In this document: in pieces, positions 22,146 through 44,979 of the stretch
Numbering within the stretch: the stretch's first letter is position 1
Layout of the letters: each line of letters opens with the position of its first letter
DNA from: a virus
DNA: 64,000 nt
Virus record (IMG/VR): IMGVR_UViG_3300010244_000098
Strand: one strand, 5' to 3'
The notes under the pieces: generated by a model
What the model was told of the DNA's origin: nothing
Databases searched by the model: none
Seen by the model: the letters and a program-made list of their open reading frames with translations, nothing else
Translations under genes and position numbers: made by a program

Positions 22146-22529
22146 TCACCAGATTGTTTCCTCATTCCATTGAGGATTCTTTATCTGTTCACTTCCATGT
22201 GTCTGCCACCCTAGTTCTTTCAGTTCCTGTTCAGAACAATTTGACTCTATCGCATCAAGGACTTGCTCCACAAAAAAAGCGGACTTGGCTATAACGCCAA
22301 CCCCGCCCTGCTCTGTAATATGAGCTAGATGCTTCTTCTGCAAGAAAGAAATTGTTGAACGGCCCTTGCCGGGTTGTTTGTTTTCAATAAATAATGGAAA
22401 CCCCCGGTAACATGCAATAATATCTGGAACACCACTGGGATTATGTTGGGCAGAATAGTTTTTATACCCCCATGCTCCGCGCTCTTTCAAAAGAGCCAGC
22501 ACGGCATTATCCACTTGTTTCTCTCTCAT
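22146..22529 (-). CDS. VRR-NUC (PD-(D/E)XK) nuclease, Holliday-junction resolvase-like
   Basis: MREKQV...SGVPDIIACYRG..LFIENKQPG...LQKKHL...GG pattern. Confidence 0.85.
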   Translation of the reverse strand: MREKQVDNAVLALLKERGAWGYKNYSAQHNPSGVPDIIACYRGFPLFIENKQPGKGRSTISFLQKKHLAHITEQGGVGVIAKSAFFVEQVLDAIESNCSEQELKELGWQTHGSEQIKNPQWNEETIW

Positions 22530-26661: not shown

Positions 26662-29600
26662 TTAGGTATAACTATACGACAAATCTCCAAAATCCATATC
26701 ATTCCCTTGGTCTTGTTGTTTTGTCTTATTGACCGCGTCTTTAGAGTAAGATTCGTTTGCACGAACCGCCTCTTTCAACATTTCGTGGTCGTAGGTCTCC
26801 TCATTGGGGGATTGTTCGTTTGTCGGAACACCCTGACCTTTTTGGAACTGCTTTAAGAAATCACGGTTGCTTTCATTCAAATCGCCTCGGTCGTTGGCTT
26901 TATACACCTGACCTCCTACGACTTTTTCTTCCGGTTGATGTTGACCGGCTAATTCTTTCATTTTCTCTTGTTTCTCCTTGATGAATGTTTTTTGCGCCTC
27001 ATATTGTTCCTTCGCTTGACCAAAATCACGGTCCAAATGTTTATGCACGTTCTTATAATCAACGTGATAAGGTTGAGAGTATTTTGTCTCCGTCACTTGT
27101 TTTGGATAAGCTGGATTCATTTCGTTCCACTCTTTGATTTTTTTCATGCCGTTTGCCCCATGTTTAGCCAAAATATCCAGAGTGTCGGAATTTTCAAAAG
27201 CATTTCGCTGGTGATTTCTCATCAATCCGGCGTTTTCTCTCGGAGAGTCCTCTGGCTCACGAAACGCTAATTGATAATAATCGACTTCTAAATCGGATAC
27301 GCTTAGTCCTGCGTCACTAAAAATAGATTTCATCCCTAAACGATACACACTCTCGCTATCGATAGGGGTATAATCATCTCCTTGTTTCAGATTTGATTTC
27401 CAATCGATTCTTTCCTCGTCGGCATAGAATTGTTTCATTTTTTCTGGATCATCCGAATAGAAATTCGGATAACGATCTGTCACCACGCCGTGATTGATGT
27501 CTGCATAAATAGATCCTTTGGCCGACCCTTTCGCATCCTCATTATACGTATTCGCTAACATATGGTCCATTTTACGAGCTAAAGCAACATCTGTTCCATT
27601 TGCCGCCTCCTCGAATGGACCGGGAGCACGGCCTGTTTGTACGTCGCCCACCCGTTTTGCTGTCTCCTCCGGTGTCTTTCCGAACATTTCTGAAGAAAAC
27701 TCAACCCATACAGGTTTGGACTCATCTGATTGTTGAACATCCTCTTTGTGTCCTTCGAATAATTTAGGCGATTCCTTCAAGAAACGTAACGCTGCCGGCA
27801 CGTCATTGGGGCTGTGTTTGATCTGCAGAATAGACTGAGACGCTGTTTCTGTCACATCCATCCCAACAGCCGCACCGGGAATGCGTCGACGTCCGCGGTA
27901 AAAATCATAATCCGCTAATACGTCCGTTACCTTCAATGTTTGAGCCCCGCTTCGTCCGATTTCGTCAACTTTTGTTTTCTGTGCTGTACGAACGGAGTTG
28001 ATATTATTCGGCGTCACACCATTTTTCAAATAAGGAGCGTTCCGTTCCTGAATGTCCGGTTCTTTTCCTTTCGCTCCGTCTTTAGCCATCGCGTATTGAG
28101 ACTCTAACAACGTATTTTCGTTTTGAATATCTACATACCGACTTGGATAATTATGACTATTTGTAGCCGTTACCTCAGTTAATTCTGATACTTTCGGGAA
28201 CGTATAGTCATCAATAACGTTTCGGTACGCTTCGTCATAAATAGCATTCCCTTGCTCAAGAATATCCCGATCCTCGTCAGACAACAATTCTGGACGAATG
28301 GCTTTATTCTCAACAATATTGTCAAAACGTTCTACATCGAAATCCTCATATTGAGATACAACATCGAATTGTTCATCAACCTGTCGCCATGTTTGTTCTT
28401 CGATATACTGAATGTAATCGTTCATGACGTCCTTGGGTTTGTTATCTTTGAAATAAGACGGGTCTTCCTGCTCTTTTCGTCCAGCCCATGATACTTGTTG
28501 ACGGAAGCCTTGTTCGCTGTCATCGTTAATCCATTCTTTCATGTAATCAACATTATCCATCCCTACATTGAGAATGGCTAATTCATTTCGTTTATCCATC
28601 ATGTTGTAGCGAATGTTTAATTTTTTGTCCCATTCCTGTTGAACTTCTTCGTCATCGATATAGGCAACTCCGAACGTATCGCCGTCAAAGTCAGCCCCCA
28701 TTGTGGCTGTCATCATTGGGTTGATGCTTACTCCAGTTAAACGTTCGTCAACACGATAGTCCATCGCAAAAACCGAACCATCATGGAGTACAGGGTCACG
28801 CCAAACCATGAGTTTGTCGCCTTCCGCCTCTTTTTTCGTCTGCCAATTTCCCCGGGCAGCTTCGTGGATTTTTGAAATGTTTCCAGTCTCCACTGCCTGT
28901 TCCCAGGATTCTTTGTCGATAGGTTCCAATACGCCGGCATTGATACCCATTGCCGGTGAAATACCCACTTTATCAAGTTCAAGAGACGTGTCGTTCGTTA
29001 GGATTGCTGTTGCCGAGTTCCGCATTTCTTTAGATAAAATTTTACGACGTGTGAACGACTGCTTGTTGCTTTTTCCATCAACACCAAACTGGTCTTTTTC
29101 AACACTGTTTTGATATTTGTTGACTTCTGTATCCAGCAATCGGGTTAGACGAGTGTAATCTTTTAAATTTTCTGATAAAGCCGTAGCCATAACTTCTCGA
29201 CTTTCATCACCTTTTACAGCATTGATCTCGTCCTTCATTTTTTCAGAAAATGGATAATTCGCTTTTTCTTTCATAAATTGATCATCGCCGGATTCATACA
29301 ATTGCTTCAAGTCATCTTCTGTGAGTTCAGGGTTCCCCATTCGCTCTTTAAAATCGTCCAGCCCTTGTTCATAAGTTAAAAGGTACTCCATTTGAAGATC
29401 TTCGACCTGTGAACCAAAATCAGCGATTCGATTTAACGACATTGTATAATCGTGTTCAACAAATTCTCCGTCGAATGATTTGGTTTCCCGACGCAAACGC
29501 TCTGCTAGGATGGGCATATAATTTGTTTGAACAGGACGAGGACTGTTGTCGTCTTTATAGGCCTTATGATTGATAGGCAGCTGCATATAAGACGCTTCTT

Positions 29601-32600
29601 CAGGCAGTCCGTATTCGGCAATATCTCTTGAAGATATCACTAGGAAGTCTTTGTCTCCATTTGGTGATTCAAACCGTTCAACCGACCCGTCTTCCTGCTC
29701 TCGTTCTTCGATATTCATGCCGTAACGTCCTTGACGCAACACGTTATCTTCGCCTGTTGTATATCCCAGAACATTTTGATAATGCAATAAATCTGCATGT
29801 TTTTTCTCGCTGTTGCCTAGAATATAACCGATTGTTTTGTCGGCTCCGTGGGACTGCAGAGCTAAACTTTGTTGGTAAGAAAACGTCCGATGACGCCCTA
29901 GATCCTGTAACTCATACAAATTCGTTTTATGTTCCGCGTCCATGTTCGTTACGATGACGGAAATTTCTCCGGCGTAGCCTCTAGTCTGTCCTTTGTTTGG
30001 ACCGTTCTGATAGGTGATAGCACCTTTACGGTCTTCGTTGGAATGGATCAACTCTTGTCCAAGCCCCATGTTCGCACGGCTTGTCATCCCGTAAGGGGAC
30101 TGAATCATATCCAATGGATACCCACTGTCTTCTGCGTCTTTAAATGCTTGTTCTGCGTCCTCATTATACCCGGGGTGGTTCGGATCCAGGCCTGAGATGT
30201 ACCCGATCACTCCTTTGTTGGAATGGTTATCGGCCAGTTTGTCCCCGATACGCAGTCCATGTTCTTCAGCAAACTCATCAGAAACAACAATAGAGTCCTC
30301 AAACGTTAGTCCACCGGCTGTCATCAACCCCACTCGTACACGGTCCCGTTCTTCTTCTTTGTCGAGTGGACCGCCGATGATGTCTTTGGCTACTTCACTC
30401 ATTTTCGATGTCATCAACACCCGATCCGGCGAGTCATATTGAGCATAATTACCGCGCATTCGCCGCACCATTGGACTGGCGTACATATAACGATGATTGC
30501 GTGTGCCTTCGTATAACTCTCGAAATGCTTCGTTTTGAGCATCTCGATTTCCTTGCTCACGGGCTGTCGTCCACCGGTTGAACGTTTCGGCTAAGTCGGG
30601 GCGTTCAAGGTTAGGGATCTCATCCAGAATTTTCTTCAATGGTTTTGATGCCTGTTGGCCTGTTACCCAGCGCTCTAACGGTGTTTCTTCTCCGTTGTCG
30701 CGGTGGAGCATACCCAATTGACCTGTTCGTTCAAAATTGAAACCTTTTTCTCCTTTATTTTCTTCAATGAAGTCCATAAATTCTTCCGTAAAATACCCGC
30801 GAAGTCCTAACGTTGCGCCGTCACTGGACGCTTGTGCGTCATACACGCCTTCAAGCCCTCTCAGTGGCAGACGAATAGATTGAGGTTGTCCGTACTGGTC
30901 TCTATCTTCTTTTGATTGTGGACGGGAATCTTCGCGAAGCTCTCCGTCACGATTCAGGTAGCTTTTATCAATTAAGAACGAATTACGCAAATGTTCAACA
31001 ACACCGGGACGGTCCATTCTTTCTCGGTCGATACGGCCCATGTCTTCATATGCTTTATTCATTCTTGTTACGTCATACATTTGATCACGGTCGGCTGACG
31101 CGTCGTTTCGTCGAGTCAACACCTGCGACTTCACAGAAGCATGGATAGCGGAGTGCATTTTTTGATCCAATCCTGTGATTTTCATGCGTTCCAGTATATG
31201 TGATTTATTCTGTGTTGGTGGGACAAACGCTACGTTGTAGTTATCAACACGCAAGTCTTCACGGCCATTTCCTCGGCGCAGGTCGAGAACGCCTTCCTTA
31301 CGGAGAAGGTTTCCGTCTCCGTCATATTCATTCTCTCTAGCCGGGAAAAAGAATTGACCCATTTTGAATTGAACCGGTTCAGATTCAATCACCTCGTTCG
31401 TCTGAGAATCAAACGCCGTGCCCCGGTCTCCGCCCCAGTGGAGCACGCCATCGTTGTCAAAACGGCCCTGGAAATGGCGAATACCCGCTTCTTCTGCCGC
31501 ACGTTTAGTCGTACGTAACACTTTTTCATAATCTTCCTTGTTCGATGTTTTTTCCAGATCCATCCAGCCGGCTAAAGGCTGGTCGGCATCGTCTGTTAAA
31601 CCTACCATCATGTTGGCGATTCGTTCACGAGAGCCTTGTTGCACCTCTACTTCTTCCTCTGCGGTGTGATCCAGGCTATCTTCGTCGTATCCTTCGTTTT
31701 GTGCCTCTGAGTTATATGATCTGTCTTCATTATGTAAAGGTTCACGTTTTCCATACATCAATTCATTACGGATATCGTCGATCGACTGACCCTGATTCAA
31801 CCGTTCCTCCGTATCATCATGCACCAGCCGCATAATTGTACCCATGTCTGAATGACGCATAACAACATCCATATCGATATCGTCCATGTTGATCGATCCA
31901 TCTTCATGGCGCACATCGTCTAAATCAATCAAACTGTCCACTTCGTTTTCATCACTGGACAATTGAGCTTTTTCGTACGCCTGCTCAACAAGTTCTGTCA
32001 TGGTCTGCGGTTGTAACAACTGGTCAACCTCTTGACGTTTGTAAGATTGAGGGTGACGTGTTCGTGAAGGCGTATTATGACCAATTGTAAACGATACATC
32101 ATAGCGGATAGAATTTCCTGAAGCGGATCTTTTTAGATCGGAATCTTTATTCATTCCTACGCTTGTAGCGTCAGACAAGGTTTTTGCTTTATGTACATCG
32201 AAGTGTTGATATTTCGATAAATCGGTCCCTTCCATGAAATATTCAACAGCAGGAATCAGAGACGCCGTTGACTCCCTTCCATCGCTGGCTCTGGCCAACA
32301 AATGACTGTTACGGAACACTGTGTTTCCATTCACATAAAATTTTCCTAAATCTTTTTCTTTCGGTGTAAATCCTAAAACATCAATCTGATTATTTCCAGA
32401 TTGAACAGTGAAACGTAAATCTTCTTGATTTACCCCGGTTACATGGACGTTCTTCATTGTCCATCCTTTTTCGTCCAGTTTTTGCTTCAAGCTTGTTCCG
32501 AAAGCGATCATACGCGGAGACAAGACGCGTTTATCCGATAAACCCCCTTTTTGCAACTCTCTAATTTGAGCAGGTGTCAGATTTAAATTAGCCTGGCTTA

Positions 32601-32964
32601 ATACGCCGTGAGGGTCTCGATTGATTTTTGGGTTATGACCCATTGAAAAGGCGCTGTTTACATCAATAAGCTCCTTTAATGAATAATAATTCACGTTGTC
32701 TTCAAAACGATTATTAGCCATTTTAGTATAAAATTCTCCATCATACCCTCGACCGTTGTCGTTTCGTAACTCACTCATCGCTTGGTTGGACGCCTGTTTC
32801 TTATCGTCTCCCGATAACCGTTGAGCGAAAGGAACATTTTGATGTGTTACATCGTACTTTAACCCGCTCGGGCGTCTGCGATTCGGCAGACTGTCCAGAT
32901 ATGTATCGTAATCTTGTTGATTTTCAATTTTAGGTTTTCCATTTTTCGTTAATTGTAAATCCAT
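26662..32964 (-). CDS. Single-polypeptide two-barrel (double-psi beta-barrel) DNA-dependent RNA polymerase, beta/beta' fusion
   Basis: Beta-like: SSDGATLGL, DSPDRVLMTSKM, TFEDSIVVS (E889/D890), GDKLADNHSNKG (K909/K917), SPYGMTSRANMG, RTFSYQQSLALQSHGA. Beta'-like: ILSKEMRNSATAIL, VWRDPVLH, INPMMTATMGADFDGD (D1425/D1427/D1429), bridge-helix-like VRTAQKTKVDEIGRSGAQTLKVTDV, trigger-loop-like AVGMDVTETASQSILQIKH (H1717). Confidence 0.93.
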   Translation of the reverse strand: MDLQLTKNGKPKIENQQDYDTYLDSLPNRRRPSGLKYDVTHQNVPFAQRLSGDDKKQASNQAMSELRNDNGRGYDGEFYTKMANNRFEDNVNYYSLKELIDVNSAFSMGHNPKINRDPHGVLSQANLNLTPAQIRELQKGGLSDKRVLSPRMIAFGTSLKQKLDEKGWTMKNVHVTGVNQEDLRFTVQSGNNQIDVLGFTPKEKDLGKFYVNGNTVFRNSHLLARASDGRESTASLIPAVEYFMEGTDLSKYQHFDVHKAKTLSDATSVGMNKDSDLKRSASGNSIRYDVSFTIGHNTPSRTRHPQSYKRQEVDQLLQPQTMTELVEQAYEKAQLSSDENEVDSLIDLDDVRHEDGSINMDDIDMDVVMRHSDMGTIMRLVHDDTEERLNQGQSIDDIRNELMYGKREPLHNEDRSYNSEAQNEGYDEDSLDHTAEEEVEVQQGSRERIANMMVGLTDDADQPLAGWMDLEKTSNKEDYEKVLRTTKRAAEEAGIRHFQGRFDNDGVLHWGGDRGTAFDSQTNEVIESEPVQFKMGQFFFPARENEYDGDGNLLRKEGVLDLRRGNGREDLRVDNYNVAFVPPTQNKSHILERMKITGLDQKMHSAIHASVKSQVLTRRNDASADRDQMYDVTRMNKAYEDMGRIDRERMDRPGVVEHLRNSFLIDKSYLNRDGELREDSRPQSKEDRDQYGQPQSIRLPLRGLEGVYDAQASSDGATLGLRGYFTEEFMDFIEENKGEKGFNFERTGQLGMLHRDNGEETPLERWVTGQQASKPLKKILDEIPNLERPDLAETFNRWTTAREQGNRDAQNEAFRELYEGTRNHRYMYASPMVRRMRGNYAQYDSPDRVLMTSKMSEVAKDIIGGPLDKEEERDRVRVGLMTAGGLTFEDSIVVSDEFAEEHGLRIGDKLADNHSNKGVIGYISGLDPNHPGYNEDAEQAFKDAEDSGYPLDMIQSPYGMTSRANMGLGQELIHSNEDRKGAITYQNGPNKGQTRGYAGEISVIVTNMDAEHKTNLYELQDLGRHRTFSYQQSLALQSHGADKTIGYILGNSEKKHADLLHYQNVLGYTTGEDNVLRQGRYGMNIEEREQEDGSVERFESPNGDKDFLVISSRDIAEYGLPEEASYMQLPINHKAYKDDNSPRPVQTNYMPILAERLRRETKSFDGEFVEHDYTMSLNRIADFGSQVEDLQMEYLLTYEQGLDDFKERMGNPELTEDDLKQLYESGDDQFMKEKANYPFSEKMKDEINAVKGDESREVMATALSENLKDYTRLTRLLDTEVNKYQNSVEKDQFGVDGKSNKQSFTRRKILSKEMRNSATAILTNDTSLELDKVGISPAMGINAGVLEPIDKESWEQAVETGNISKIHEAARGNWQTKKEAEGDKLMVWRDPVLHDGSVFAMDYRVDERLTGVSINPMMTATMGADFDGDTFGVAYIDDEEVQQEWDKKLNIRYNMMDKRNELAILNVGMDNVDYMKEWINDDSEQGFRQQVSWAGRKEQEDPSYFKDNKPKDVMNDYIQYIEEQTWRQVDEQFDVVSQYEDFDVERFDNIVENKAIRPELLSDEDRDILEQGNAIYDEAYRNVIDDYTFPKVSELTEVTATNSHNYPSRYVDIQNENTLLESQYAMAKDGAKGKEPDIQERNAPYLKNGVTPNNINSVRTAQKTKVDEIGRSGAQTLKVTDVLADYDFYRGRRRIPGAAVGMDVTETASQSILQIKHSPNDVPAALRFLKESPKLFEGHKEDVQQSDESKPVWVEFSSEMFGKTPEETAKRVGDVQTGRAPGPFEEAANGTDVALARKMDHMLANTYNEDAKGSAKGSIYADINHGVVTDRYPNFYSDDPEKMKQFYADEERIDWKSNLKQGDDYTPIDSESVYRLGMKSIFSDAGLSVSDLEVDYYQLAFREPEDSPRENAGLMRNHQRNAFENSDTLDILAKHGANGMKKIKEWNEMNPAYPKQVTETKYSQPYHVDYKNVHKHLDRDFGQAKEQYEAQKTFIKEKQEKMKELAGQHQPEEKVVGGQVYKANDRGDLNESNRDFLKQFQKGQGVPTNEQSPNEETYDHEMLKEAVRANESYSKDAVNKTKQQDQGNDMDFGDLSYSYT

Positions 32965-33067: not shown

Positions 33068-33086
33068 CATCAAGAAATGACAGTCT

Positions 33087-34979
33087 TTAAATAACTAAGT
33101 CCCATAAAAAGACGACATTTTTTGTGTTCCTTCGTAGATAATAATACTTTGGATTCCCGTCTGTAATCTCTTTGACAAGCTGAGACGGCAATTCTCCCTG
33201 GACAGCACGGCTGTAATTGGAAATGTCCACGCTGGACATGGACCCTGTAATGACAGTATCTGCTGATTCAAAAAACGGGCTGTCAATCATTTTCTTCACG
33301 TTATTGAAGCTGATGACCAATTTGACACTCATGTCCTGCAGGAAGTTTCTTTGATTATTGATGTATTCCCAAACCTCGGGTGTAATCGACTCTGCTCCAT
33401 AAATATGAATCACGTCGTGTTCTTTGATCTCCCCAAGCATATAAGTAAAGATGTTGATAAATTGAGCCATCAAAACGTCAACCCCGTTTTGTCTCAGTTT
33501 CGCAAAGGGAAAAATCTTACGTGGCTTATTGCGAAGTTCCGAATCATCAAACGAGGTATGGGTGTCGAATAAATCGCCATAAGACGTCTGCATGACCGAT
33601 ACCATATTCACGAGTCGTTTGAACCCCGCTGCCAACTCTTTGTTCTGTCCGACAGTCGCTGTTCCTTCTGCATGGATACGGTACTGCGATGATAAATAAG
33701 GAATTAATTTGTTTAGACGAGGCACTTCCGTATAATCATCTAAACCAACCATACGCAGACGGTCCCGGTTCTCTTGCGGGTTTTCCGACCACATGCCTTG
33801 TTGAATATAAAAGCCGTCTAAGGCTTCATCAAAAAGCATTAAATCATCTTTGGTCATATCCTCGTTCAACTGTTGAACCATCAGTTTCAACTTGTTTTTA
33901 AGAATAGCGTACGCCGACAATTCATTCTCTACGTCACCAAACGCTTGAAGGGGGTTGATCATCCCTTTATCCATTTGAACTTTAGCTGTCGAGTTTTTCA
34001 AATCCGCTCCAATCTGAGTCGGATCTTCGTTGTTCAATACAAGTTCATAGACATTTCGTCCTTTGAGCAGTTCGTTTTGAGCGAAGAAAGTCTGCCATGC
34101 TGCTTGAGCACTGAAATCGTATGGTTGTTTCCGACCAGCCATGATTGCTTTTCCGTTCGCCCCAATCAACGTCACGTCTCCGGCTGTATCCGTATCGTAC
34201 ATGACAGGGGTTTGATTCACGTCCCCGACGGTCATTCCAATATAATCCCCGTTGGGGTCACGCCAGCCTTTTCCTACAAATGGATAAAACCCGGCGAACT
34301 CCACGGACGTGTATCCGTCGTGGTGGCCCAACTGCGATGTAGCAGGGCCTAACATGTTTCTAAAGTCATCCTGTTGTTGGCCGATGTTCTGTGTCAATCG
34401 AGCTGAACCAAAACGTGTTTGGTAACGGCGGGATAATTCGGTAATCGTCTCAGTCAATTCCTCTTTCGTTGGGGCAAACAATAAAATTTTCGATGTAACG
34501 TCCAGATAAGACGCGCCTCCGGCAATTTCGCTTGTTGACACCCGATGATCCACGGCTCGTTTCCGGCTACGGTCAGCCTCTAACGCCTGACGCGCCATTT
34601 TCGCTTCCTCATGAGCTGTCTCAGATACTTCTGAAGCTACGGCCGAATGAGACTCCACCCAGCTCTCAGGGCGTGTCTGAAAGGCTACAATGAGCCTTGC
34701 TGTAACAGACCTGTTTTTCGTTACCGGAATCAATCGACTTCCCCACATTGGAGGCAATTGATTCACTGCACCAGCATCTGCTATAAATGTCAGAATAGCC
34801 CCGTAACTCAATCCGGTTTGGAAATAGTCTGAATAAAATTTTAAATTTCCGAAAGGAGCGATTTCTTGAAGAAAGGAATCAGATAACTTCCCTTTCGGTT
34901 TTTTCTTTTGTTTCTCTTTTGATTTTCCCTGCGTTTGATCCTTTCCTTTTCCCAATCGTTGTTTGATGCCTTCTAACAC
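33087..34979 (-). CDS. VirB4/TraE-like conjugation ATPase homolog with degenerate Walker motifs
   Basis: VirB4-like layout (FYPFVGKGWRDPNGDYIG..NQTPVMYD, INPLQ, LFDTHTSFD, IFPFAKL) and location among transfer genes. The Walker A position reads LIGANGKAIMAGRK and the Walker B position VIHIYGAES. Confidence 0.65.
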   Translation of the reverse strand: MLEGIKQRLGKGKDQTQGKSKEKQKKKPKGKLSDSFLQEIAPFGNLKFYSDYFQTGLSYGAILTFIADAGAVNQLPPMWGSRLIPVTKNRSVTARLIVAFQTRPESWVESHSAVASEVSETAHEEAKMARQALEADRSRKRAVDHRVSTSEIAGGASYLDVTSKILLFAPTKEELTETITELSRRYQTRFGSARLTQNIGQQQDDFRNMLGPATSQLGHHDGYTSVEFAGFYPFVGKGWRDPNGDYIGMTVGDVNQTPVMYDTDTAGDVTLIGANGKAIMAGRKQPYDFSAQAAWQTFFAQNELLKGRNVYELVLNNEDPTQIGADLKNSTAKVQMDKGMINPLQAFGDVENELSAYAILKNKLKLMVQQLNEDMTKDDLMLFDEALDGFYIQQGMWSENPQENRDRLRMVGLDDYTEVPRLNKLIPYLSSQYRIHAEGTATVGQNKELAAGFKRLVNMVSVMQTSYGDLFDTHTSFDDSELRNKPRKIFPFAKLRQNGVDVLMAQFINIFTYMLGEIKEHDVIHIYGAESITPEVWEYINNQRNFLQDMSVKLVISFNNVKKMIDSPFFESADTVITGSMSSVDISNYSRAVQGELPSQLVKEITDGNPKYYYLRRNTKNVVFLWDLVI

Positions 34980-34996
34980 GTTATCAAACTCCTTTC

Positions 34997-35305
34997 TCAG
35001 TCCTTTTCCGTCAGCGCCGTCATGATGATATTTCGCAATAATGCAGAGCGTTTAATGCCCCTGTTATCGCAAATCTCATGAATCTTCTCAACAACCTCAA
35101 CAGGCAATTGAACCGTTGCCTGTTGTTTTGGCCGTTCGTTGAATACATTTAAATCATACGGTTTTTTATACCATTCGAGAACCAATTGACGTGTTAAGGC
35201 TGCTTCAGTAAGAAATAACGACTGAGCTTCCTCCTTTAAAAGTTCAAGGCCCGTAGCAGGAATTCTAAAATGAACACGTTTGAACGTTGTGTCTTCTAAG
35301 TTCAT
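34997..35305 (-). CDS. Tandem ribbon-helix-helix protein
   Basis: RVHFRIPATGLELLKEEA...EAALTRQLV and QATVQLPVEVVEKIHEIC..RGIKRSALLRNII. Confidence 0.7.
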   Translation of the reverse strand: MNLEDTTFKRVHFRIPATGLELLKEEAQSLFLTEAALTRQLVLEWYKKPYDLNVFNERPKQQATVQLPVEVVEKIHEICDNRGIKRSALLRNIIMTALTEKD

Positions 35306-35630: not shown

Positions 35631-37742
35631 TTAACGTTTGCCAAACAATCCCCGCAATCCCTTTTTTCTCGGTTTTTCGTCTTCGACGTCCAGGTCCAGA
35701 TCATCCAGGTCATCAAAGTCATCGTCCCAGTCATCATCTGCTAATTCATCAGGAACGTCTCCTGTTAGATCCTCGTCGTCCCATTCGTTGAGCTCGTCTT
35801 CGTCATCCCACTCATCAGCCGTGTTTGACGTTGCTTCCGGGTAAATATCTGTAGGACGGCTCACGACAGGTTGAGGGGTAGATGATTGGTTTTGTTTCGG
35901 TTGTTGCGGTCGAACAGCTTCAGCAGCTTCCTCCGGTTTAACAGCTGGTTTGTCTGCATTACTGACTGATTCGTTATTGTCTGACACAACGTCGTCCGAT
36001 ACGGTATCATCGGGCACGGAGCGAACAGCCGTGTCCTCAGCAGGCGTTTCAACCTTAGGCTCTGGAGCACTTGGTGATTGAACCTGTGCTATCGGTTGTT
36101 CTTGTTGAACAGTTCCTTCTTGTTGCATAGACGTGCTCGGCTGAACATCTCTTGGTAATGGTTGTTGTTGAGCTTTCGTTTGTTGTTCGATCTGCTCGTA
36201 CATACGACGCATTTCCGTAACCATTCGGCGACTTTCCATTTGATCTCTCGCACTCATTATACGCTCATTAAGAGTTTGAGCTCCTTGACGGGACGCTTCT
36301 TCCCAATCCAGTTTCAAGTAGGATAAATCATGAGTGTGACGTTCTTCAACGAACTGATCAACATATTGGTCGAATTCTTTCTCTCGTTGTTCAAGTGCCC
36401 TGTTATAAATCTCCTGTTGACGGTCTTTTTCTTCTTGAACAGCGTCGTCAACGACTGACTGGCGGTATGTTTCCTCATAAACTGCTCTCGGGTCTTCTTC
36501 GACGCGCTGTAGCCATTGATTGTAGCCGTCTTCTAGTATATTTTCGCGTTCAGTTTCATAGTCATCTATTGCTTTTGGAATGTCATTTCTCAACTGTTCC
36601 AACGGACGAATAAAAATGGAATCGTATTTTTCAGCAATTCCTGCATTCACTGTCTCGTTGTTGCTGATGTCGACCTTTTCTTCAACATCTAACGCTTCTC
36701 GTTTCAGTTGAACGAGGGCTTGGTTGACGAATTTCTCTCGTTCCCGGTTCATCGCGATCATTAAATCTCGTCGCCCTTGTTCATCAAATTGATTAAACTC
36801 CGTATCGACAATTTTCATGCTTTTTGCGTATTGGTTAACGTCTTCCAACTGCGATAAATAACGAGATTGAATCCGAGAGTCAGGATGCACGCCCAATTCT
36901 TGAACAATATCCTCAAAGCGTTTGAACTGAGGGATTGCATTCTTTTGTTTGTTTCTCGCCTGACGAGCTCTCGCTTCTTTTTGGCGTTCTGCCTCACGTC
37001 TGCGTCGTGCTTCCTCCTGTTTACGGCGTTCTTCTTCTTTTTTCAATTGTTCTTTGTAATATTTATCGCCTTGTTCCAATAAGCGGTCTTCTTCACTTTG
37101 TTTTTCTTCAACGTTCATTTTCATATCTTCGCCAGAAAAATTCTGATCATCGATCAACGAACTTAATTCTTCATCTGTAAACTCACGTGAACTTGTTTGC
37201 TTAGGTTTTGTTACCACAGGTAAATCCTCCTCGTGTACGTGTCTGTCCTCCGGGCTTAAGTGCCCTGTCTCAACAATATGTTTAAAATATTCACTAATCT
37301 CTACAAAATCGATTCTATATGTATGTCCTTGACTGTCACGTACAGGTTTTAATGATCCTTTGTACGGAGATTCTGAGGACGGGTGTTGAATTTCATAAAT
37401 ATTCCAAGGGATCGTTGTTAATTTCTTTAAATCCTCAGAACCATTCATGATAACGGTATGTAAATCTTCAGTAATTAAAAAACCAATGTGATCCGGATCA
37501 CTTTCAAACGTGACCAAATCAATACTCCCAGCATCATCCATCGCTCGAAGTTGTGCAAATTGGGACTCGTCTGTCAATCCTAAATCTTCCAGATCATCGA
37601 CATGAAATCCCGTAGTGTAATAATGACGTTGGTCATTTTCATCAACGAGTGTTGCCCCTGTGTAATTCCCGTTCGTCACATCGCGTTGAATTTGCGCTGA
37701 CAGATTCACCGGTGTTTTGGGTACAAAGACTTTCAAATCCAT
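35631..37742 (-). CDS. Large coiled-coil protein with an acidic tail and a C-terminal amphipathic helix
   Basis: Start moved to ATG 37742 (AAGGAAAGG RBS); long E/Q/R coiled coil, P/Q/D-rich linker, ends KPRKKGLRGLFGKR. Confidence 0.75.
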   Translation of the reverse strand: MDLKVFVPKTPVNLSAQIQRDVTNGNYTGATLVDENDQRHYYTTGFHVDDLEDLGLTDESQFAQLRAMDDAGSIDLVTFESDPDHIGFLITEDLHTVIMNGSEDLKKLTTIPWNIYEIQHPSSESPYKGSLKPVRDSQGHTYRIDFVEISEYFKHIVETGHLSPEDRHVHEEDLPVVTKPKQTSSREFTDEELSSLIDDQNFSGEDMKMNVEEKQSEEDRLLEQGDKYYKEQLKKEEERRKQEEARRRREAERQKEARARQARNKQKNAIPQFKRFEDIVQELGVHPDSRIQSRYLSQLEDVNQYAKSMKIVDTEFNQFDEQGRRDLMIAMNREREKFVNQALVQLKREALDVEEKVDISNNETVNAGIAEKYDSIFIRPLEQLRNDIPKAIDDYETERENILEDGYNQWLQRVEEDPRAVYEETYRQSVVDDAVQEEKDRQQEIYNRALEQREKEFDQYVDQFVEERHTHDLSYLKLDWEEASRQGAQTLNERIMSARDQMESRRMVTEMRRMYEQIEQQTKAQQQPLPRDVQPSTSMQQEGTVQQEQPIAQVQSPSAPEPKVETPAEDTAVRSVPDDTVSDDVVSDNNESVSNADKPAVKPEEAAEAVRPQQPKQNQSSTPQPVVSRPTDIYPEATSNTADEWDDEDELNEWDDEDLTGDVPDELADDDWDDDFDDLDDLDLDVEDEKPRKKGLRGLFGKR

Positions 37743-37810
37743 AATGTTCCACCTTTCCTTTCTTATTGGACGATTCAATACGAGGGCGTTCCGTATTTGA
37801 ATGCACCATT

Positions 37811-37911: not shown

Positions 37912-40900
37912 TTACTCGTTCTCGTATTCGTTGTCGTCACTGCCAAATAATTCATCAAATACATCCGGGGTGTTGCTCTGTTTCTCTCGAGGCGTGTTCA
38001 TTCGAACTCCTGCATCATGTTCTTTGGTATCCTTATGAACTGAGCCAAAGGGTGATGCGTTTGTAAGAGGTTCGGTCGATTGACGTTCCCTTGCGAACAT
38101 AGTTCCTCGTTCATTTGCATATCGAGTAGACGGTCGGTCCACGTTCGGTTGATCAGAATCTGTTTGGATAACGTTGGACCTTCCGGTTGACCCTTGACGT
38201 TCGTTGTTCACATACGTAGAACCTTTCGTCACGTCTTGATGTGTGTCATATGTTCCTGATTGATTTACCGTTGTGCTATCACGATTTTCACCAGAGAATG
38301 TTGACGTCACATCGCTATTTGTTGCATATCCATCAAGCGATTGATGAGTGCCTCGAACGTTTTGTTGTTGGTTCGGAGCATGAGTCTCAATATCGTCTTG
38401 GAATGTATTTGCTTCATTGATGTTTTCATTTACCAGGTCAGATCCTTCACGAACATATTGATTTGTCGATTTGTTTCCTACTGCACCGCTTTGTACAGTG
38501 TGGTCTGACGACATATCAACCTGGTCTGTTGCTTCAGATGTCGTATTGTATTGGTCTCCAAACTGACGTCCTGTTTCGCTAAGAGACCCAGCACCTGTCA
38601 TATGCCCAAGTGACTCGTTGTCTGTTGCTGAAGCACTTTGTTCGTTTGCTTCATTCATATCAACAGATCCTTGACCAATATCGCTCATGCGGTTCATTTC
38701 TCCGTGTGTGTGAATAGTTGAAGAATCACGACTGATACCGTTGGCATCGCTTGTTACGTCATAAGATTGATTATCTCCGTTAAGAGACGTATCGTAACCT
38801 GATGCACTCATATTTGGTGTTGTATCATAAGCAAGACCAGTATCCTGTGCTGATGAGCCTTCGGACTGAACGGATTCGTCCATATCGACAGATCCTTGAT
38901 CAACAACGCTCATACGATCCATGCGACCGTCTGTGTTCATTGTTGTTGAATCCTGCATGACTCCGTCGACATTCGACTCAGCCGTCACTGACTGGCCGTC
39001 TCCGTTAAGAGACGTATCGTAACCCGTCGTATTCATATCCGGTGTTACATTATAAGAAAAACCAGTATCCTGTGCTGATGAGCCTTCGGACTGAACGGAT
39101 TCGTCCATATCGACAGATCCTTGATCAACAACGCTCATACGATCCATGCGACCGTCTGTGTTCATTGTTGCTGAATCCTGCATAACTCCGTCGACATTCG
39201 ATTCAGTCGTTACTGACTGACCGTTTCTGTCGAAGTCCATGTCGGTATCTGTAACATCAAGATCGGACATTGTATCGTAACCAGACATCGTATCCTGTAC
39301 TGGCACGTCATCTAAGTGGCCTGACTGGTCCATTGGCCTGTCTACTTGGTCGTTTTGAATCTGAGACTCTTGAGAAATATCGCTTTGTCCAGTCACAGAC
39401 ACATCGTCTTGAATCTCTCCATTTTCTGAAAAGCTCGTGTCATACGATGACCCTTCTGCTTGATTATCTGATTCCATTTCAGCAAATGGATTGTCACTTG
39501 ACGTATCGTACATTCCTTCACTGTCCGCAACCATGTCTGAATCTGCATATGATACGTCTGCATCGCCACGGTTATCCGAGAAGACCGTTTCCTGATCGAT
39601 TGACTGATCTCCTTCCAATCCTACTTCGTCACGGAGCGTTTCGTCTGAAGATCCATCATTATTCGATAAGTGGCTCGCGGCTAATCCGGCTGCACCGACT
39701 GCTGTTCCTGTCGTCGTTGCTTCGTTTATATCCGGGATAGCACCTGTCTCATCTGTCATAGACTCATTGACGAAAGGATTCTCTTGATTTTCTTCATCAT
39801 GAACACTTATATCGCCGGCGTCCCTGTCGGATTCGCGGAATAGATCTTCATCATCCGCTGTTGAACTGTCTAACTCATTGGCGTATGTGTCATTATACGG
39901 CGCCATCGCTTCATCGTCATCAGCAAGCGTATTGTATCCGTCTTGGTCTGACGTATCCGCAAAAATATCTTGGTCTGCCATCTGTTGGTCATAATGCAAG
40001 CTTCCGCCATCTGCCCGAGCTTCTATAGACTCGTCTGCTCGGTTTTGTCCATCGCCAATATCATAAGCTCCTTGTTCGTCATCAGGGAATTGTTCCTGCA
40101 TATCTCCGGCTTCACGACTCATCGTCGCTGCCGCAAGTCCCGCATCCGCTTCGTTTATAGATTGATCTCCGGCATCTGACTCGATCAATTCATCCGCGCT
40201 GTTCATATCTCCACTGACAAGATATCCGTCATCATTCATACGCATAGCGCCTGCTTCACGTTCAGCGGAAATGTCTCCGTTGCTTGCATCGATTGTGTCA
40301 TCCGCTTCATTTTCCACGGCTTGATCGGCATTGGCTGTTTGATCCATTTGATCGCGATGTCCTTCATCCAAATCCATCTCTTGATCTTGACTTGCATGAA
40401 GGGTCTCTGTCTCTGTGATTTCTTCTTCGCTGTCCATATCGCTATAGTCGCCACCGAGAGCTTCTTCGCCCATAGTTTGACCATCTTCGTCCAGTTCTTG
40501 CTCTGCAGAAATATGTTCAAGGTTTCGACGTTCCCGTTCGCTTTCTTCTTCATCGTCACCAACACTGCCCATGGCTTCATCGGCATCTTGGAAATCTTGA
40601 GCATTTGAAATGTCACCCAATTCATTCGCGTTCGAATCATCGTCTGTTGTCGATGTTGACGAACCGCTCGTTGACGATTCTGTTGTCTCTGTTTCTTCTT
40701 CAGCGTCGTCACCGACACCGCCAAGTGCTTCTTCGCTATCTGTATGTCCTTGAGTCTGCCCTGATGAACCGCCTAACGCTGATTCATGAGCCAGTGATTC
40801 ATCAAAATCCTCTGTATCTCCGGTAGCCTGGCCACCGAGACTATCCCCAACAGCTCCCGCTGTGGATCCGGCCCCGACGGCCCCCATAACAGAACCGGCG

Positions 40901-43086: not shown

Positions 43087-44979
43087 CTATGCCCGGAGTT
43101 TATGCTGATTTTCCAGCGTTAATTTTGTTAAACTGGCTCGCTTCATTGTTGTCGTCAGTTCACCAATGTATCCGTCACGGGTTACAAAAAGAGCCATTAA
43201 ATGAGAGTCCGTTGTGACTCTTGTCTTATTGTCGATAGCCATTTCACCGTCTACAACGATTCGAACCCACGCCAAAGCCCTGTTGTTATCCCGAGCTCCT
43301 TCTATCACGCGGGCAACCAACGGGGTTACTTCCCGTTCAATTCGTCGATTCATAGCACGGCCACCACCCGCACTTGTGTTGTTCAATGCACGGAAACGTT
43401 CTTTTACGAGATAGTCGGCCACCCGTTTTTCAAACGATAAATCGAATTGGAAATACGATTGGACCCGATCAACGACTGTATTTAATTCAATACGAGCAAT
43501 GTTTTCATATGTATCTTCTTCAAGAGGAGCAAAAGGAATCACTTCATCAAAACGACCTAAGAACTCCGGAGAAAATGTCTGTCCAAGTTGATCCCGGAGT
43601 AACATATCCATTTCTTCCACTTTTAAATTCTGACTGCGAAGGTCCTTAAATACGTCCGCCGCTCCGTTTGTGGTAATGGTCATGATAGCGTTGGTAAAAG
43701 TCACCTGTCGTCCATATTGGTCCGTTAACCGACCATCGTCCAGTATGGCTAATAACATGTGCATAATACTACGGTGTGCTTTTTCAATCTCATCTAATAA
43801 CACAACACTATAAGGGTATTTGCTGATATCTCTTGCAATTCGTTTCTGGAATACCCCCACATCATCGGCCATGGAGTATTCAGACATGTCGTAACGGATC
43901 AAGAATTTCTCATCTCCGAACATGCTCTCAGCCATAGCCTTCGCTAATTGGGTTTTTCCGACCCCGGTTGACCCAGCGAATAAGAAGTTCGCCAACGGCC
44001 GTGTATGGTCTTGAAGCCCGGTATTCGCAACAAACAGCCGGTCTTCGATCATTTGCAGGGCTGTTTCCTGTCCCATGACTTTTTTCTTAATGTGAGTCAT
44101 GACACTATCGATGTCGGTTTTCCAGTCTACATCAACCCCTGCTTTATCTTTCATGATACGAGCGATCAATTCGTGATCGACATACCCTTTTAAATGTTCT
44201 TTTGCAAAATCTCCCCGGTCGACACCAATGCGGGCACTACGGTAAAACCCAATCGCCGCATCGAGAATGTCGATTGATTTAGCCGGTTGAGCAAAAGCCG
44301 GAAGAAAACGATTTGTATAATCAACAATCTCGTCATAAATATTCGGTTGAACAATGTAAGGAACATTGCTCTTGCCCAGATACGTATGCGCCATGTTTTC
44401 CAGAATCGTTACAACCACGTCCGGAGAAGGCTCCGGCATATTAATAATCTGAGAACGACGAGTTAACGCCTGGTCCGATTTGATATATTTTTCGTATTCT
44501 TCGTCGGTTGTTGCACCGATGATTTTAATCATGCCTCGTTGCATTAGGGGTTTTAAAGCGTCCCCTGCGGCTGAACCGCTTGAACGGCTACTAGAGGTAA
44601 TCAAGTGCATTTCGTCAAGAAACACAATAGTGTCTCCTGTTTCCCCTTTCTTTCGCCGGGCATTATCGAAAGCTAATACGTCATTTGCCAGTCCTTTGAT
44701 CCGTTCGGCAAATTTGTTGTCGCCTTCTCCGCTCATTGTCGGCAGATCTACGTCGAAAATAAGCAACCCCTCCTCTTGATGAAGGGTTGCGTAACCTTCT
44801 ACGAAGCTCGTTTTCCCTACACCGGCAGGACCGAGAAGCACGACGTTGTTCATCTCTGGACGACGCAGGCTGGACTCTAGTGTTTCGTATTGACGTTCTC
44901 GTCCGACAGGCAGTCGGTCAACGGCTTCCATTTTTTCACCATATGTAGCTAAATAAGGAAATGATTCGTATGAAATCAT
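43087..44979 (-). CDS. Clp/Hsp100 ATPase no. 2: two AAA+ modules, pore loops altered or deleted
   Basis: GPAGVGKT, VFLDEMH, IGATTDEEY, ALTRR; GSTGVGKT, RYDMSEY, LLDEIEKAH, FSPEFLGRFD. No Clp-N domain, M domain or GYVG loop. Confidence 0.88.
   Translation of the reverse strand: MISYESFPYLATYGEKMEAVDRLPVGRERQYETLESSLRRPEMNNVVLLGPAGVGKTSFVEGYATLHQEEGLLIFDVDLPTMSGEGDNKFAERIKGLANDVLAFDNARRKKGETGDTIVFLDEMHLITSSSRSSGSAAGDALKPLMQRGMIKIIGATTDEEYEKYIKSDQALTRRSQIINMPEPSPDVVVTILENMAHTYLGKSNVPYIVQPNIYDEIVDYTNRFLPAFAQPAKSIDILDAAIGFYRSARIGVDRGDFAKEHLKGYVDHELIARIMKDKAGVDVDWKTDIDSVMTHIKKKVMGQETALQMIEDRLFVANTGLQDHTRPLANFLFAGSTGVGKTQLAKAMAESMFGDEKFLIRYDMSEYSMADDVGVFQKRIARDISKYPYSVVLLDEIEKAHRSIMHMLLAILDDGRLTDQYGRQVTFTNAIMTITTNGAADVFKDLRSQNLKVEEMDMLLRDQLGQTFSPEFLGRFDEVIPFAPLEEDTYENIARIELNTVVDRVQSYFQFDLSFEKRVADYLVKERFRALNNTSAGGGRAMNRRIEREVTPLVARVIEGARDNNRALAWVRIVVDGEMAIDNKTRVTTDSHLMALFVTRDGYIGELTTTMKRASLTKLTLENQHKLRA

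What the first reader, a model, noticed from the sequence alone, without database searches (positions are those of the whole stretch)
33087..34979. VirB4-like protein with degenerate Walker A and Walker B
Seen: the expected GxxGxGK[ST] reads IGANGKAIMAGRK (~34140-34170) and the expected hhhhDE reads VIHIYGAES (~33390-33415), while the surrounding layout is VirB4/TraE-like. Established: VirB4 ATPase activity is normally essential for T4SS function. Inference: this is a pseudo-ATPase scaffold, so the energy must come from elsewhere (a coupling protein outside the window, or Clp 2), or the apparatus is not a standard conjugation machine. The ORF is intact, which argues against simple decay.
Basis: partly seen in the sequence, partly recalled or inferred. 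Interest (0 to 1): 0.6.

Follow-up and report, generated by a model that had tools for sequence, protein, structure and literature searches.

The report
VirB4 relative without ATP-binding motifs
This gene encodes a true structural relative of VirB4, the motor ATPase of bacterial DNA-transfer machines, but it belongs to a large, conserved Gram-positive plasmid family that has lost both ATP-handling motifs; that family includes the vancomycin-resistance plasmid pELF2, so it probably acts as a membrane-docked scaffold rather than a motor.

Summary
ORF 33087-34979(-) encodes 630 aa containing IGANGKAIMAGRK and VIHIYGAES. The model matches VirB4 over both domains (Z 30.3 to 4AG5; TrwK over residues 36-627). 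The family aligns to Walker-intact pLS20-type VirB4 proteins at E=3e-38. In that alignment the Walker A G-K-S falls on Q-A-A after a 12-residue insertion, and the Walker B D-E falls on G528-A529.

This is not decay. The family has 470 clusters at 50% identity, and none of 144 full-length members has a P-loop at that site. All carry a conserved G-D-h-h-h-I-[HY]-G-x-[DE] signature instead. dN is 0.14 with dS saturated.

The family lies in a recurrent plasmid cluster: a Clp-like double AAA+ ATPase, giant proteins, and a ~290-aa membrane protein with a VirB4-N-domain-like fold. In the window that cluster also holds a MobL relaxase. A complex model supports binding of the membrane protein to the VirB4-like N-domain (score 0.78; best control 0.00). 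No VirD4/FtsK was found in the window or its 20 kb of flanks.

pELF2 of Enterococcus faecium carries the same cluster, which its 2026 transfer study does not mention. Best reading: an inert VirB4-derived scaffold. Loss of ATPase activity and a role in transfer are inferred, not shown. This is a new variant of a known kind.

The parts
33087..34979 (-). VirB4-derived protein of 630 aa. The N-terminal VirB4-like domain is about residues 30-260 and the C-terminal RecA-type domain about residues 258-630. It lacks Walker A and Walker B.
   Evidence: Pfam, NCBIfam and PHROGs give no hit.
34128..34166 (-). Former Walker A site (IGANGKAIMAGRK). A long variable loop replaces the P-loop and the catalytic Lys is absent.
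   Evidence: hhalign column mapping. This stretch is not conserved across the 144 members.
33387..33413 (-). Former Walker B site (VIHIYGAES). G528 sits at the Asp position and A529 at the Glu position. The family signature here is G-D-h-h-h-I-[HY]-G-x-[DE].
   Evidence: G in 140 of 144 members, H or Y in 138 of 144, D or E in 127 of 144.
45004..45873 (-). 289-aa membrane protein with an N-terminal TM hairpin and a VirB4-N-domain-like soluble domain. It is the predicted docking partner of the VirB4-like protein. In the relatives examined outside this window's own lineage, a ~290-320-aa ORF directly precedes the VirB4-like gene; homology of that ORF to the 289-aa protein was shown for the Staphylococcus, E. 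faecium and Macrococcus copies.
   Evidence: Adjacency is seen.
43087..44979 (-). Clp-like double AAA+ ATPase of 630 aa. Both Walker A/B pairs are intact and there is no GYVG pore loop. It is the only protein with intact Walker motifs in the transfer operon.
37912..43014 (-). 1700-aa protein with about 5 predicted TM segments and no family hit. It is weakly similar to the 1353-aa protein of Staphylococcus plasmid SAP020A. There is only a weak lead to TrbL/VirB6-like clusters.
35631..37778 (-). 715-aa protein with a conserved ~170-aa N-terminal domain, a long charged coiled coil and an acidic tail. It is not an ATPase.
34997..35305 (-). 102-aa ribbon-helix-helix protein immediately upstream of the VirB4-like gene.
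26662..32964 (-). 2100-aa fused two-barrel RNA-polymerase-like protein immediately downstream. It is homologous to the 1807-aa protein in the same position in Staphylococcus plasmid SAP020A.
50309..53062 (-). MobL/MobP2-type relaxase at the upstream end of the operon.
20084..22165 (-). Topoisomerase III-like gene at the downstream end of the operon. Its SAP020A counterpart is 37% identical.

Best explanation
The protein is a VirB4-derived pseudo-ATPase. It keeps both VirB4 domains and, I infer, VirB4's architectural job in a Gram-positive conjugation-type (T4SS-like) apparatus. That job would be to dock, through its N-terminal domain, onto a membrane-anchored ~290-aa VirB4-N-domain-like partner and to form the cytoplasmic base of the channel. 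It can no longer bind or hydrolyse ATP in the canonical way, because the P-loop lysine and the Walker B Asp-Glu are gone. The loss is ancient and family-wide, and the former Walker B site has been remodelled into a new conserved motif (IHGx[DE]). Energy for assembly or transfer would then come from other ATPases: the Clp-like double AAA+ ATPase present in seven of the nine family clusters examined, and, where present, a VirD4-type coupling protein (Staphylococcus SAP020A), an FtsK-type one (pELF-type plasmids) or a VirB11/CpaF-type ATPase (Lactococcus). Shown here: the fold, the homology, the motif state, the conservation, the purifying selection and the gene neighbourhood. Supported by a model only: binding to the 289-aa partner. 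Inferred: lack of ATPase activity, the scaffold role, a role in DNA transfer, and the identity of the motor.
For: Fold: Foldseek's top hits are VirB4 of T. pseudethanolicus (E=1.3e-13, TM 0.74 on the target) and full-length TrwK. VIA-align gives Z 30.3, rmsd 2.8 over 327 residues, to 4ag5_A, and Z 18.6 to TrwK over model residues 36-627. Homology: the family profile's only PDB sequence hit is that same VirB4 (E=0.07). hhalign against Walker-intact Lactobacillales VirB4 proteins gives probability 100% and E=3.2e-38 over 557 columns. Motifs: those relatives have GNAGMGKS or GRPGSGKS plus NIDE, whereas this family has a variable loop and G-A at the same columns. Conservation: 470 clusters at 50% identity reach E<=1e-3. 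None of 144 full-length members has a P-loop at the site. The four GxxxxGK[ST] matches lie elsewhere, which is about what I estimate chance would give. G528 is conserved in 140 of 144 members. dN is 0.137 against saturated dS versus an 80%-identical homologue. Context in the window: MobL relaxase, topoisomerase III and a Clp-like AAA+. The same gene order is seen in L003, SAP020A, E. faecium plasmids, pELF2, and Macrococcus and Lactococcus plasmids. Partner: the complex model scores 0.78 against a best control of 0.00. That mark was reached by 58 of 80 solved complexes and 2 of 110 mismatched pairs. The runs agree in at least 91% of contacts and the partner pLDDT is at least 79. My own alignments were used, so the calibration counts hold only roughly. 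The partner's soluble domain best matches the TrwK N-domain (Z 8.5, the only hit at Z>=8).
Against: No biochemical data exist, and a non-canonical nucleotide site cannot be excluded. D522, H/Y527, [DE]530, Q506 and R617 are conserved around the old site. No family member, pELF2's included, has been shown to be needed for transfer. The pELF2 study found three essential genes in a different operon and did not test this cluster. The Clp-like ATPase lacks a GYVG pore loop and also occurs beside a Walker-intact VirB4 in pHN3, so it is not a specific substitute motor. The element extends beyond the window (contigs of 148 kb and 222 kb), so a canonical VirD4 or VirB4 elsewhere on it is not excluded. 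Complexes of VirB4 with its partners have been solved (R388), so the complex pass may partly reflect likeness to known structures.
Confidence: 0.6

Rival explanations
1. The protein is still an NTPase or nucleotide-binding switch that uses a non-canonical site. The conserved D522, H/Y527, [DE]530, Q506 and R617 would form a remodelled catalytic or ligand pocket, so the family would be an unusual motor rather than a scaffold.
For: The former Walker B region is more sharply conserved than a merely structural strand would need to be: G in 140 of 144 members, H or Y in 138, D or E in 127, and D522 in 138. The Gln of the 'aQfiN' helix is invariant in the 21-sequence alignment and aligns with the corresponding Gln of the solved VirB4. 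A conserved Gln in VirB4 is predicted to take part in NTP binding (PMC2653234).
Against: The loop that should hold the phosphates is variable in both length and sequence across the family, and no conserved Lys, Ser or Thr is found there. Both acidic Walker B residues are replaced. I know of no RecA-fold ATPase that works without a P-loop; this rests on my own knowledge.
Confidence: 0.15
2. The cluster is not a DNA-transfer machine. A VirB4-derived scaffold, a Clp-like ATPase, giant proteins and a fused RNA polymerase would form a different plasmid-borne apparatus, for example for protein export, surface or adhesion assembly, or establishment in a new host. Real DNA transfer would be carried out by a separate minimal FtsK-type system, as reported for pELF2.
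For: In pELF2 the experimentally essential transfer genes (traC, traD, traG) lie about 30 kb away in another operon. MOB-suite types 110 of the 196 carrier plasmids as non-mobilizable. LPXTG and pilin or sortase genes lie in or near the E. faecium clusters.
Against: In the window, and in L019, the cluster is headed by a MobL relaxase. In SAP020A a VirD4-type protein sits inside the cluster. Relatives carry T4SS-type cell-wall hydrolases. The nearest Walker-intact relatives lie in recognised pLS20-type conjugation operons. The pELF2 study did not test this cluster and itself notes that other uncharacterised genes may be involved.
Confidence: 0.2
3. This copy is a decaying VirB4 pseudogene that happens still to be open.
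For: None beyond the missing motifs.
Against: The frame is intact and has a good ribosome-binding site. There are hundreds of diverged homologues with the same motif state. dN/dS is far below 1. Synteny is conserved across Bacillota and Actinomycetota.
Confidence: 0.01

Closest known systems
VirB4 of pLS20-type Gram-positive conjugation systems (for example the 642-aa 'conjugal transfer protein' WP_011476603.1 of Ligilactobacillus salivarius pHN3, and the L. plantarum and L. brevis homologues)
   Same: They are homologous over nearly the full length (hhalign E=3e-38 over 557 columns). They have the same two-domain layout and a similar operon position, downstream of small membrane proteins. pHN3 also has a Clp-like ATPase at the head of its cluster.
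   Different: Those proteins keep GxxxxGKS and [NC]IDE, and they are accompanied by a CD1115-type VirD4, a pLS20_p028 membrane protein and DUF5592. This family has lost both motifs. It scores 297-582 bits on its own HMM, against 158-174 bits for the intact group. Its clusters examined here lack a recognisable VirD4, except in SAP020A.
VirB4 of Thermoanaerobacter pseudethanolicus (PDB 4AG5/4AG6) and TrwK/VirB4 of plasmid R388 (PDB 7O42, 8RTD)
   Same: They are the best structural matches for both domains. The family profile's only PDB sequence hit is 4AG5.
   Different: Sequence identity is about 8-14%.
Rickettsia VirB4b (RvhB4-II), Gillespie et al. 2009 (PMC2653234)
   Same: It is a VirB4 paralogue in which substitutions spoil critical residues of the NTP-binding cleft, 'casting doubt' on ATPase function while the gene is retained. 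It is the clearest published precedent for an inactive VirB4.
   Different: VirB4b coexists with a canonical VirB4a in the same genome and is confined to one genus. Here no canonical VirB4 was found in the window or on the two closed carrier plasmids searched (SAP020A and an E. faecium plasmid). The P-loop is replaced outright rather than point-mutated, and the clade spans many genera of Bacillota and Actinomycetota.
pELF2 tra system of Enterococcus faecium (TraC 'VirB4 analog', TraD FtsK/VirD4-type, TraG), Kurushima et al. 2026 (PMC13492992)
   Same: pELF2 carries a strong member of this family (656 aa at 41029-42999; 565 bits; IVMIHGFD; no Walker A), together with the 288-aa partner and the AAA ATPase.
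   Different: The published tra operon lies at 71.5-80 kb. Its TraC is a 420-aa protein that the authors call a VirB4 analogue by architecture and function, with no detectable sequence homology to VirB4. The VirB4-fold protein described here is a different gene in a cluster the paper does not mention.

Membership tests
VirB4/TraC/TrbE family of T4SS ATPases | C-terminal RecA-type ATPase domain with the VirB4-type fold | tested here: met
   VIA-align gives Z 30.3, rmsd 2.8 over 327 residues, to 4ag5_A, well above DndH-C (22.0) and HerA (19.5). Foldseek gives E=1.3e-13.
VirB4/TraC/TrbE family of T4SS ATPases | VirB4-type N-terminal domain preceding the ATPase domain | tested here: met
   Full-length TrwK (7o42_A) aligns over model residues 36-627 (Z 18.6, 448 residues aligned). 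The N-domain pLDDT is only moderate, about 50-80.
VirB4/TraC/TrbE family of T4SS ATPases | Detectable sequence homology to bona fide VirB4 proteins | tested here: met
   hhalign to Walker-intact pLS20-type VirB4 gives probability 100% and E=3.2e-38. tblastn gives E about 1e-12 to 1e-16. However, Pfam, NCBIfam and PHROGs models give no hit.
VirB4/TraC/TrbE family of T4SS ATPases | Walker A P-loop, GxxGxGK[ST] | tested here: not met
   The P-loop is replaced by a variable loop with a 12-residue insertion, and G-K-S aligns to Q-A-A (family consensus S-S-x). It is absent at this site in all 144 full-length members.
VirB4/TraC/TrbE family of T4SS ATPases | Walker B, hhhhDE | tested here: not met
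   D-E aligns to G528-A529. The family motif is I-[HY]-G-x-[DE].
VirB4/TraC/TrbE family of T4SS ATPases | ATP hydrolysis required for secretion or transfer | not testable with these tools
   This needs purified protein and mating assays.
VirB4/TraC/TrbE family of T4SS ATPases | Encoded within a conjugation or T4SS gene cluster (relaxase, coupling protein, VirB6-like channel, cell-wall hydrolase) | tested here: inconclusive
   A relaxase is present. A VirD4-type protein is seen only in the SAP020A relative. Hydrolases are seen in relatives. For a VirB6-like channel there is only a weak lead, on the 1700-aa protein. No VirD4 or FtsK was found in the window plus 20 kb of flanks.
Catalytically inactive VirB4 paralogues (Rickettsia VirB4b type) | Retained VirB4 fold with a disrupted NTP-binding cleft, under selection | tested here: met
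   The precedent is described in PMC2653234.
Catalytically inactive VirB4 paralogues (Rickettsia VirB4b type) | Coexistence with a canonical VirB4 in the same system | tested here: inconclusive
   No second VirB4-like gene was found in the window. The AAA_10 (VirB4-type) Pfam search found nothing on closed plasmid SAP020A, and on the closed E. faecium plasmid it gave only two sub-threshold hits, falling in the FtsK/SpoIIIE gene and the Clp-like AAA gene. Caveat: the same search also gave no match on the positive control pHN3, which does carry a Walker-intact VirB4, so this model is not sensitive to this lineage and its negatives carry little weight. The rest of the 148-222 kb element could not be searched.

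The most novel reading that the evidence does not exclude
This family marks a distinct, so far unrecognised class of Gram-positive conjugation apparatus. In it, VirB4 has become a pure scaffold that is tethered by a membrane-anchored VirB4-N-domain paralogue, and a pore-loop-less Clp-like double AAA+ ATPase, with or without a variant coupling protein, supplies the energy. The class would be widespread on Bacillota and Actinomycetota plasmids, invisible to current MPF typing, and would form the missing mating-channel module of pELF-type vancomycin- and linezolid-resistance plasmids of E. faecium.
Probability: 0.3. Interest if true: 0.8.

Novelty: new variant of a known kind. Interest (0 to 1): 0.62.

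Why it matters
VirB4 is treated as the one universal, indispensable ATPase of type IV secretion, and it is the marker used to detect and classify conjugation systems. A 2025 review states that Gram-positive VirB4 homologues retain all signature motifs, including Walker A and B (PMC12857230). A large, selected clade without either motif contradicts that generalisation. It also offers an explanation, still untested, for why MOB-suite types 110 of the 196 matching plasmids as non-mobilizable. And it raises the question of what powers these machines.

The family includes pELF-type linear plasmids, which spread vancomycin resistance in hospital E. faecium. Their transfer machinery was described in 2026 as 'highly minimized', with a VirB4 'analog' that shows no sequence homology to VirB4. 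pELF2 in fact encodes a genuine VirB4-fold protein in a second, unstudied cluster. The genetic tools already published for that plasmid make its role directly testable.

Tried and rejected
1. Pfam, NCBIfam and PHROGs scans, and a PDB sequence search with the single protein, gave no hit. Homology only emerged from the fold search, the family profile and plasmid tblastn.
2. Whole-genome search of the window's own genome and of the metagenomic record is not possible: neither is held. I walked 10 kb out from each window edge instead and found no VirD4, FtsK or VirB4.
3. I first suspected the E. faecium carriers were pMG1/pHTbeta-type plasmids. Those records are not in the collection and the primary papers are not held, so no such link was shown. 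The carriers I inspected proved to be of the pELF type: they share the TraC/TraD-sized gene pair and the same cluster, and one is pELF2 itself.
4. P0160's GGEGTGKS looked like a retained Walker A, but it lies in an insertion upstream of strand beta-1. Four such matches in 169 proteins is about what I estimate chance would give.
5. The 715-aa protein was considered as a hidden divergent coupling ATPase and rejected. It has no Walker motifs and is a coiled-coil, acidic protein, and the Atlas search gave no usable hit.
6. The SAP020A VirD4-like protein at first looked Walker-less, but alignment shows variants (TRGNKGQT, ILEE) with the lysine kept, so I do not call it degenerate.
7. Equivalence of the 289-aa partner to DUF5592 plus the ~220-aa ORF of pLS20-type clusters: only weak, colinear matches (HMM E about 1e-3 to 2e-2; hhalign probability below 3%), so this is inconclusive.
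8. The literature on NCgl1702-like RNAP neighbourhoods could not be retrieved.
9. A phrase search for papers combining VirB4 with 'lacks the Walker', 'pseudo-ATPase' or 'inactive ATPase' found none. That is not proof that none exists.
10. A family tree to root the loss was not built. Only closely related Walker-intact sequences were in hand, so it could not have been informative.
Full report
**The observation.** The minus-strand ORF 33087-34979 is intact and encodes 630 aa. It starts at a GTG that lies 9 nt downstream of an AAGGAG ribosome-binding site. IGANGKAIMAGRK is residues 272-284 (window 34128-34166), and VIHIYGAES is residues 523-531 (window 33387-33413). A regex for [AG]xxxxGK[ST] finds no Walker A anywhere in the protein. 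The only hhhhD[DE] match, LMLFDE at residue 380, lies in a helical region and not at the Walker B strand.

**Is it VirB4-like?** Curated sequence libraries see nothing. Pfam, NCBIfam, PHROGs and a single-sequence PDB search all return zero hits. An AlphaFold2 model built on 21 homologues has mean pLDDT 73, with 85-95 over most of residues 260-590. Its matches are unambiguous. Foldseek's top rows are VirB4 of Thermoanaerobacter pseudethanolicus (4AG6_A, E=1.3e-13, TM 0.74 on the target) and full-length TrwK/VirB4 of R388, followed by DndH-C, HerA and TrwB. VIA-align gives Z 30.3 (rmsd 2.8 Å over 327 residues) to 4AG5_A, well clear of the next fold at 22.0. TrwK aligns across model residues 36-627 (Z 18.6), so both the N-terminal and C-terminal VirB4 domains are present. 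A profile of the family reaches a single PDB sequence, that same VirB4, but only weakly (E=0.07).

**A sequence bridge to real VirB4 proteins.** tblastn against plasmids found 196 records. The weaker hits are Lactobacillales genes annotated as 'ATPase', 'conjugal transfer protein' or 'type IV secretory system conjugative DNA transfer family protein'. They lie in recognisable pLS20-type conjugation operons, with a CD1115-type VirD4, a pLS20_p028 membrane protein, DUF5592 and a lysozyme-type hydrolase. These proteins have intact Walker A motifs (GNAGMGKS, GRPGSGKS, GRPRMGKS) and Walker B motifs ([NC]IDE). hhalign between a 144-member alignment of the target's family and these proteins gives probability 100% and E=3.2e-38 over 557 columns. 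The alignment places their G-K-S on Q292-A293-A294 of the target (family consensus S-S-x), after a 12-residue insertion, and places their D-E on G528-A529.

**Decay or design?** The family is large. A profile search of 1.84 billion representative proteins found 470 clusters (at 50% identity) with E<=1e-3, and 160 with E<=1e-30. Among 144 full-length members, none has a P-loop at the structural Walker A site. That stretch varies in both length and sequence across the family. The four GxxxxGK[ST] matches found in 169 proteins lie elsewhere, which is about what I estimate chance would give; one of them, in P0160, sits in an insertion upstream of strand beta-1. The Walker B site, in contrast, has become a sharply conserved new signature, G-D-h-h-h-I-[HY]-G-x-[DE]: D522 in 138 of 144 members, H or Y in 138, G528 in 140, and D or E in 127. 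Against the 80%-identical homologue on contig L003, dN is 0.137 while synonymous sites are saturated (pS about 0.75), so dN/dS is far below 1. The family HMM separates the two groups cleanly: P-loop-less members score 297-582 bits and Walker-intact pLS20-type VirB4 proteins 158-174 bits. This is an old, selected state and not a decaying copy.

**Gene context.** In the window the gene sits in a long minus-strand operon, in this order:
- MobL/MobP2 relaxase (50309-53062)
- several small or membrane ORFs, including a 289-aa two-TM protein (45004-45873)
- a Clp-like double AAA+ ATPase (43087-44979)
- a 1700-aa membrane protein
- a 715-aa protein
- a 99-aa ORF
- a ribbon-helix-helix protein
- the VirB4-like gene
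- a 2100-aa fused RNA-polymerase-like gene
- further ORFs, ending with topoisomerase III (20084-22165)

. The nearest relative, L003, has the same order. More distant members share a recurring set of neighbours. These are Staphylococcus SAP020A, E. faecium plasmids, Macrococcus and Lactococcus plasmids, a Nocardiopsis contig and two metagenomic contigs. The shared set is:
- a ~290-320-aa ORF directly upstream
- a Clp-like AAA+ ATPase (in 7 of 9 contexts)
- giant proteins
- lysozyme, M23 or CHAP hydrolases
- sometimes a MobL relaxase

. BLAST confirms that the 289-aa protein, the Clp-like ATPase, the RNAP-like protein and the topoisomerase are homologous between the window and SAP020A.

**Where could the energy come from?** In the window's operon only the Clp-like protein has intact Walker A/B pairs. 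The 715-aa protein is a coiled-coil, acidic protein and not a hidden ATPase. Six-frame searches of the window and 10 kb beyond each end with VirD4-like, FtsK-like and pELF TraC/TraD queries found nothing below E=0.06. The element is larger than the window, with contigs of 148 kb and 222 kb, and the rest could not be searched.

In relatives the picture varies. SAP020A has a VirD4-type protein inside the cluster; it scores above the Pfam cut-off and has variant motifs, TRGNKGQT and ILEE. pELF-type plasmids have an FtsK-type TraD elsewhere on the plasmid. A Lactococcus cluster has a CpaF/VirB11-type ATPase.

The Clp-like ATPases in all four clusters I compared lack a GYVG pore loop, in line with an earlier first-reader note (e1-5358185). 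One also stands at the head of the pHN3 cluster, whose VirB4 is Walker-intact. The Clp-like protein is therefore a lineage-typical accessory and not a specific replacement for the lost VirB4 activity.

**The partner.** The 289-aa protein has a TM hairpin followed by a soluble domain. Three weak lines of evidence agree on what it is. NCBIfam's mycoplasma ICE VirB4 model matches it to that model's N-terminal part, positions 19-275 of 894 (E=3.8e-6, below the cut-off). In VIA-align its only hit at Z>=8 is the TrwK N-domain (Z 8.5, rmsd 5.1 over 152 residues). The top 14 Foldseek rows are all TrwK chains (E=3.5e-3 to 3e-2).

A complex prediction of this protein with the VirB4-like protein supports binding. 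The score is 0.78 against a best control of 0.00. That mark was reached by 58 of 80 solved complexes and by 2 of 110 mismatched pairs. The runs agree in at least 91% of contacts and the partner pLDDT is at least 79. My own alignments were used, so those calibration counts hold only roughly. The interface joins the VirB4-like N-domain (about residues 30-260) to partner residues about 107-245, with strand pairing of 96-101 with 183-188. VirB4 complexes have been solved, so the pass may partly reflect likeness to them. It is a model's confidence and not a measurement.

**The pELF2 link.** pELF2 (NZ_AP022343.1) carries the same cluster at 29,975-42,999: an AAA ATPase, then proteins of 1213, 718, 77 (LPXTG) and 288 aa with small ORFs between them, then a 656-aa ORF. 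The 656-aa ORF is a strong family member: it scores 565 bits on the family HMM, has IVMIHGFD and has no Walker A. The 2026 PLoS Pathogens study of pELF2 transfer defined a tra operon at 71.5-80 kb and showed that traC, traD and traG are essential. It called TraC a VirB4 'analog' without sequence homology to VirB4, and concluded that the machinery is 'highly minimized'. It does not mention the cluster described here. A 2022 preprint reports that a pELF2 derivative lacking a 31.6-kb core region lost self-transmissibility, but the text does not give the coordinates.

**Precedent and novelty.** Rickettsia VirB4b is a published VirB4 paralogue with a spoiled NTP cleft, but it coexists with a canonical VirB4a. 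A 2025 review states that Gram-positive VirB4 homologues keep Walker A and B. A phrase search of the held library for a Walker-less or pseudo-ATPase VirB4 found nothing. I therefore rate this a new variant of a known kind. It is homologous to VirB4 and probably works in a VirB4-like place, but it fails two defining features of the ATPase family.

**Verdict.** The most likely mechanism (confidence 0.6) is an inert, membrane-tethered VirB4-derived scaffold in a divergent conjugation-type apparatus that is powered by other ATPases. The rivals are a non-canonical nucleotide site (0.15), an apparatus not used for DNA transfer (0.2) and decay (0.01).

Noticed in passing
L021 (pELF2, NZ_AP022343.1) 29975-42999: The clinically important linear vanA plasmid pELF2 carries a second, unstudied T4SS-like cluster: a Clp-like AAA ATPase, proteins of 1213 and 718 aa, an LPXTG protein, the 288-aa partner and the 656-aa VirB4-like protein. 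It lies about 30 kb from the published tra operon.
   Followed up: partly
L001 (SAP020A) 9979-13848: This 1289-aa VirD4-type protein inside the Staphylococcus cluster has variant motifs. Its Walker A reads TRGNKGQT (Gly to Asn before the Lys) and its Walker B reads ILEE instead of ILDE.
   Followed up: partly
window 43087-44979, and the homologues L001:1029-2885, L002:4897-6846 and L004:77-1906: The Clp-like double AAA+ ATPases at the head of these clusters have no GYVG pore loop, whereas the window's ClpB at 56812-59451 does. Three of the four keep both Walker A/B pairs; in the SAP020A copy the regex finds only one Walker A and one Walker B. One of them also accompanies a Walker-intact VirB4 in pHN3.
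   Followed up: partly
L023 (Lactococcus pUCCL629A) 549-17227: This cluster with a P-loop-less VirB4-like protein (574 aa, IIELYGAD) also encodes a CpaF/VirB11-family ATPase, a BspA surface protein and a CHAP hydrolase. It suggests that lineages pair the scaffold with different motors.
   Followed up: no
window 35631-37778: This 715-aa protein has a highly conserved ~170-aa N-terminal domain, a long Glu/Arg/Lys-rich coiled coil, a long acidic Asp/Trp-rich tail and a basic C-terminal KKGLRGLFGKR. It has only 5 homologues and no family hit. Proteins of ~720-800 aa occupy the same position in the related clusters.
   Followed up: partly
window 34997-35305: A ribbon-helix-helix (CopG/Arc-like) protein sits immediately upstream of the VirB4-like gene in this lineage. 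In most other lineages that position holds the ~290-aa membrane partner, which here lies 10 kb upstream.
   Followed up: no
plasmid hits: MOB-suite types 110 of the 196 matching plasmids as non-mobilizable and 75 as merely mobilizable. pELF2 is among the non-mobilizable ones although it is experimentally self-transmissible, so current mating-pair-formation typing appears to miss this system.
   Followed up: no
L013 1-3957 and L015 17160-20405 (flanks of the window on the 148.5-kb contig): The element also encodes a pXO2_28-C/DUF8345 surface protein, TraX, RecJ, a non-specific endonuclease and a Cas9. That fits a large conjugative plasmid from a metagenome.
   Followed up: no
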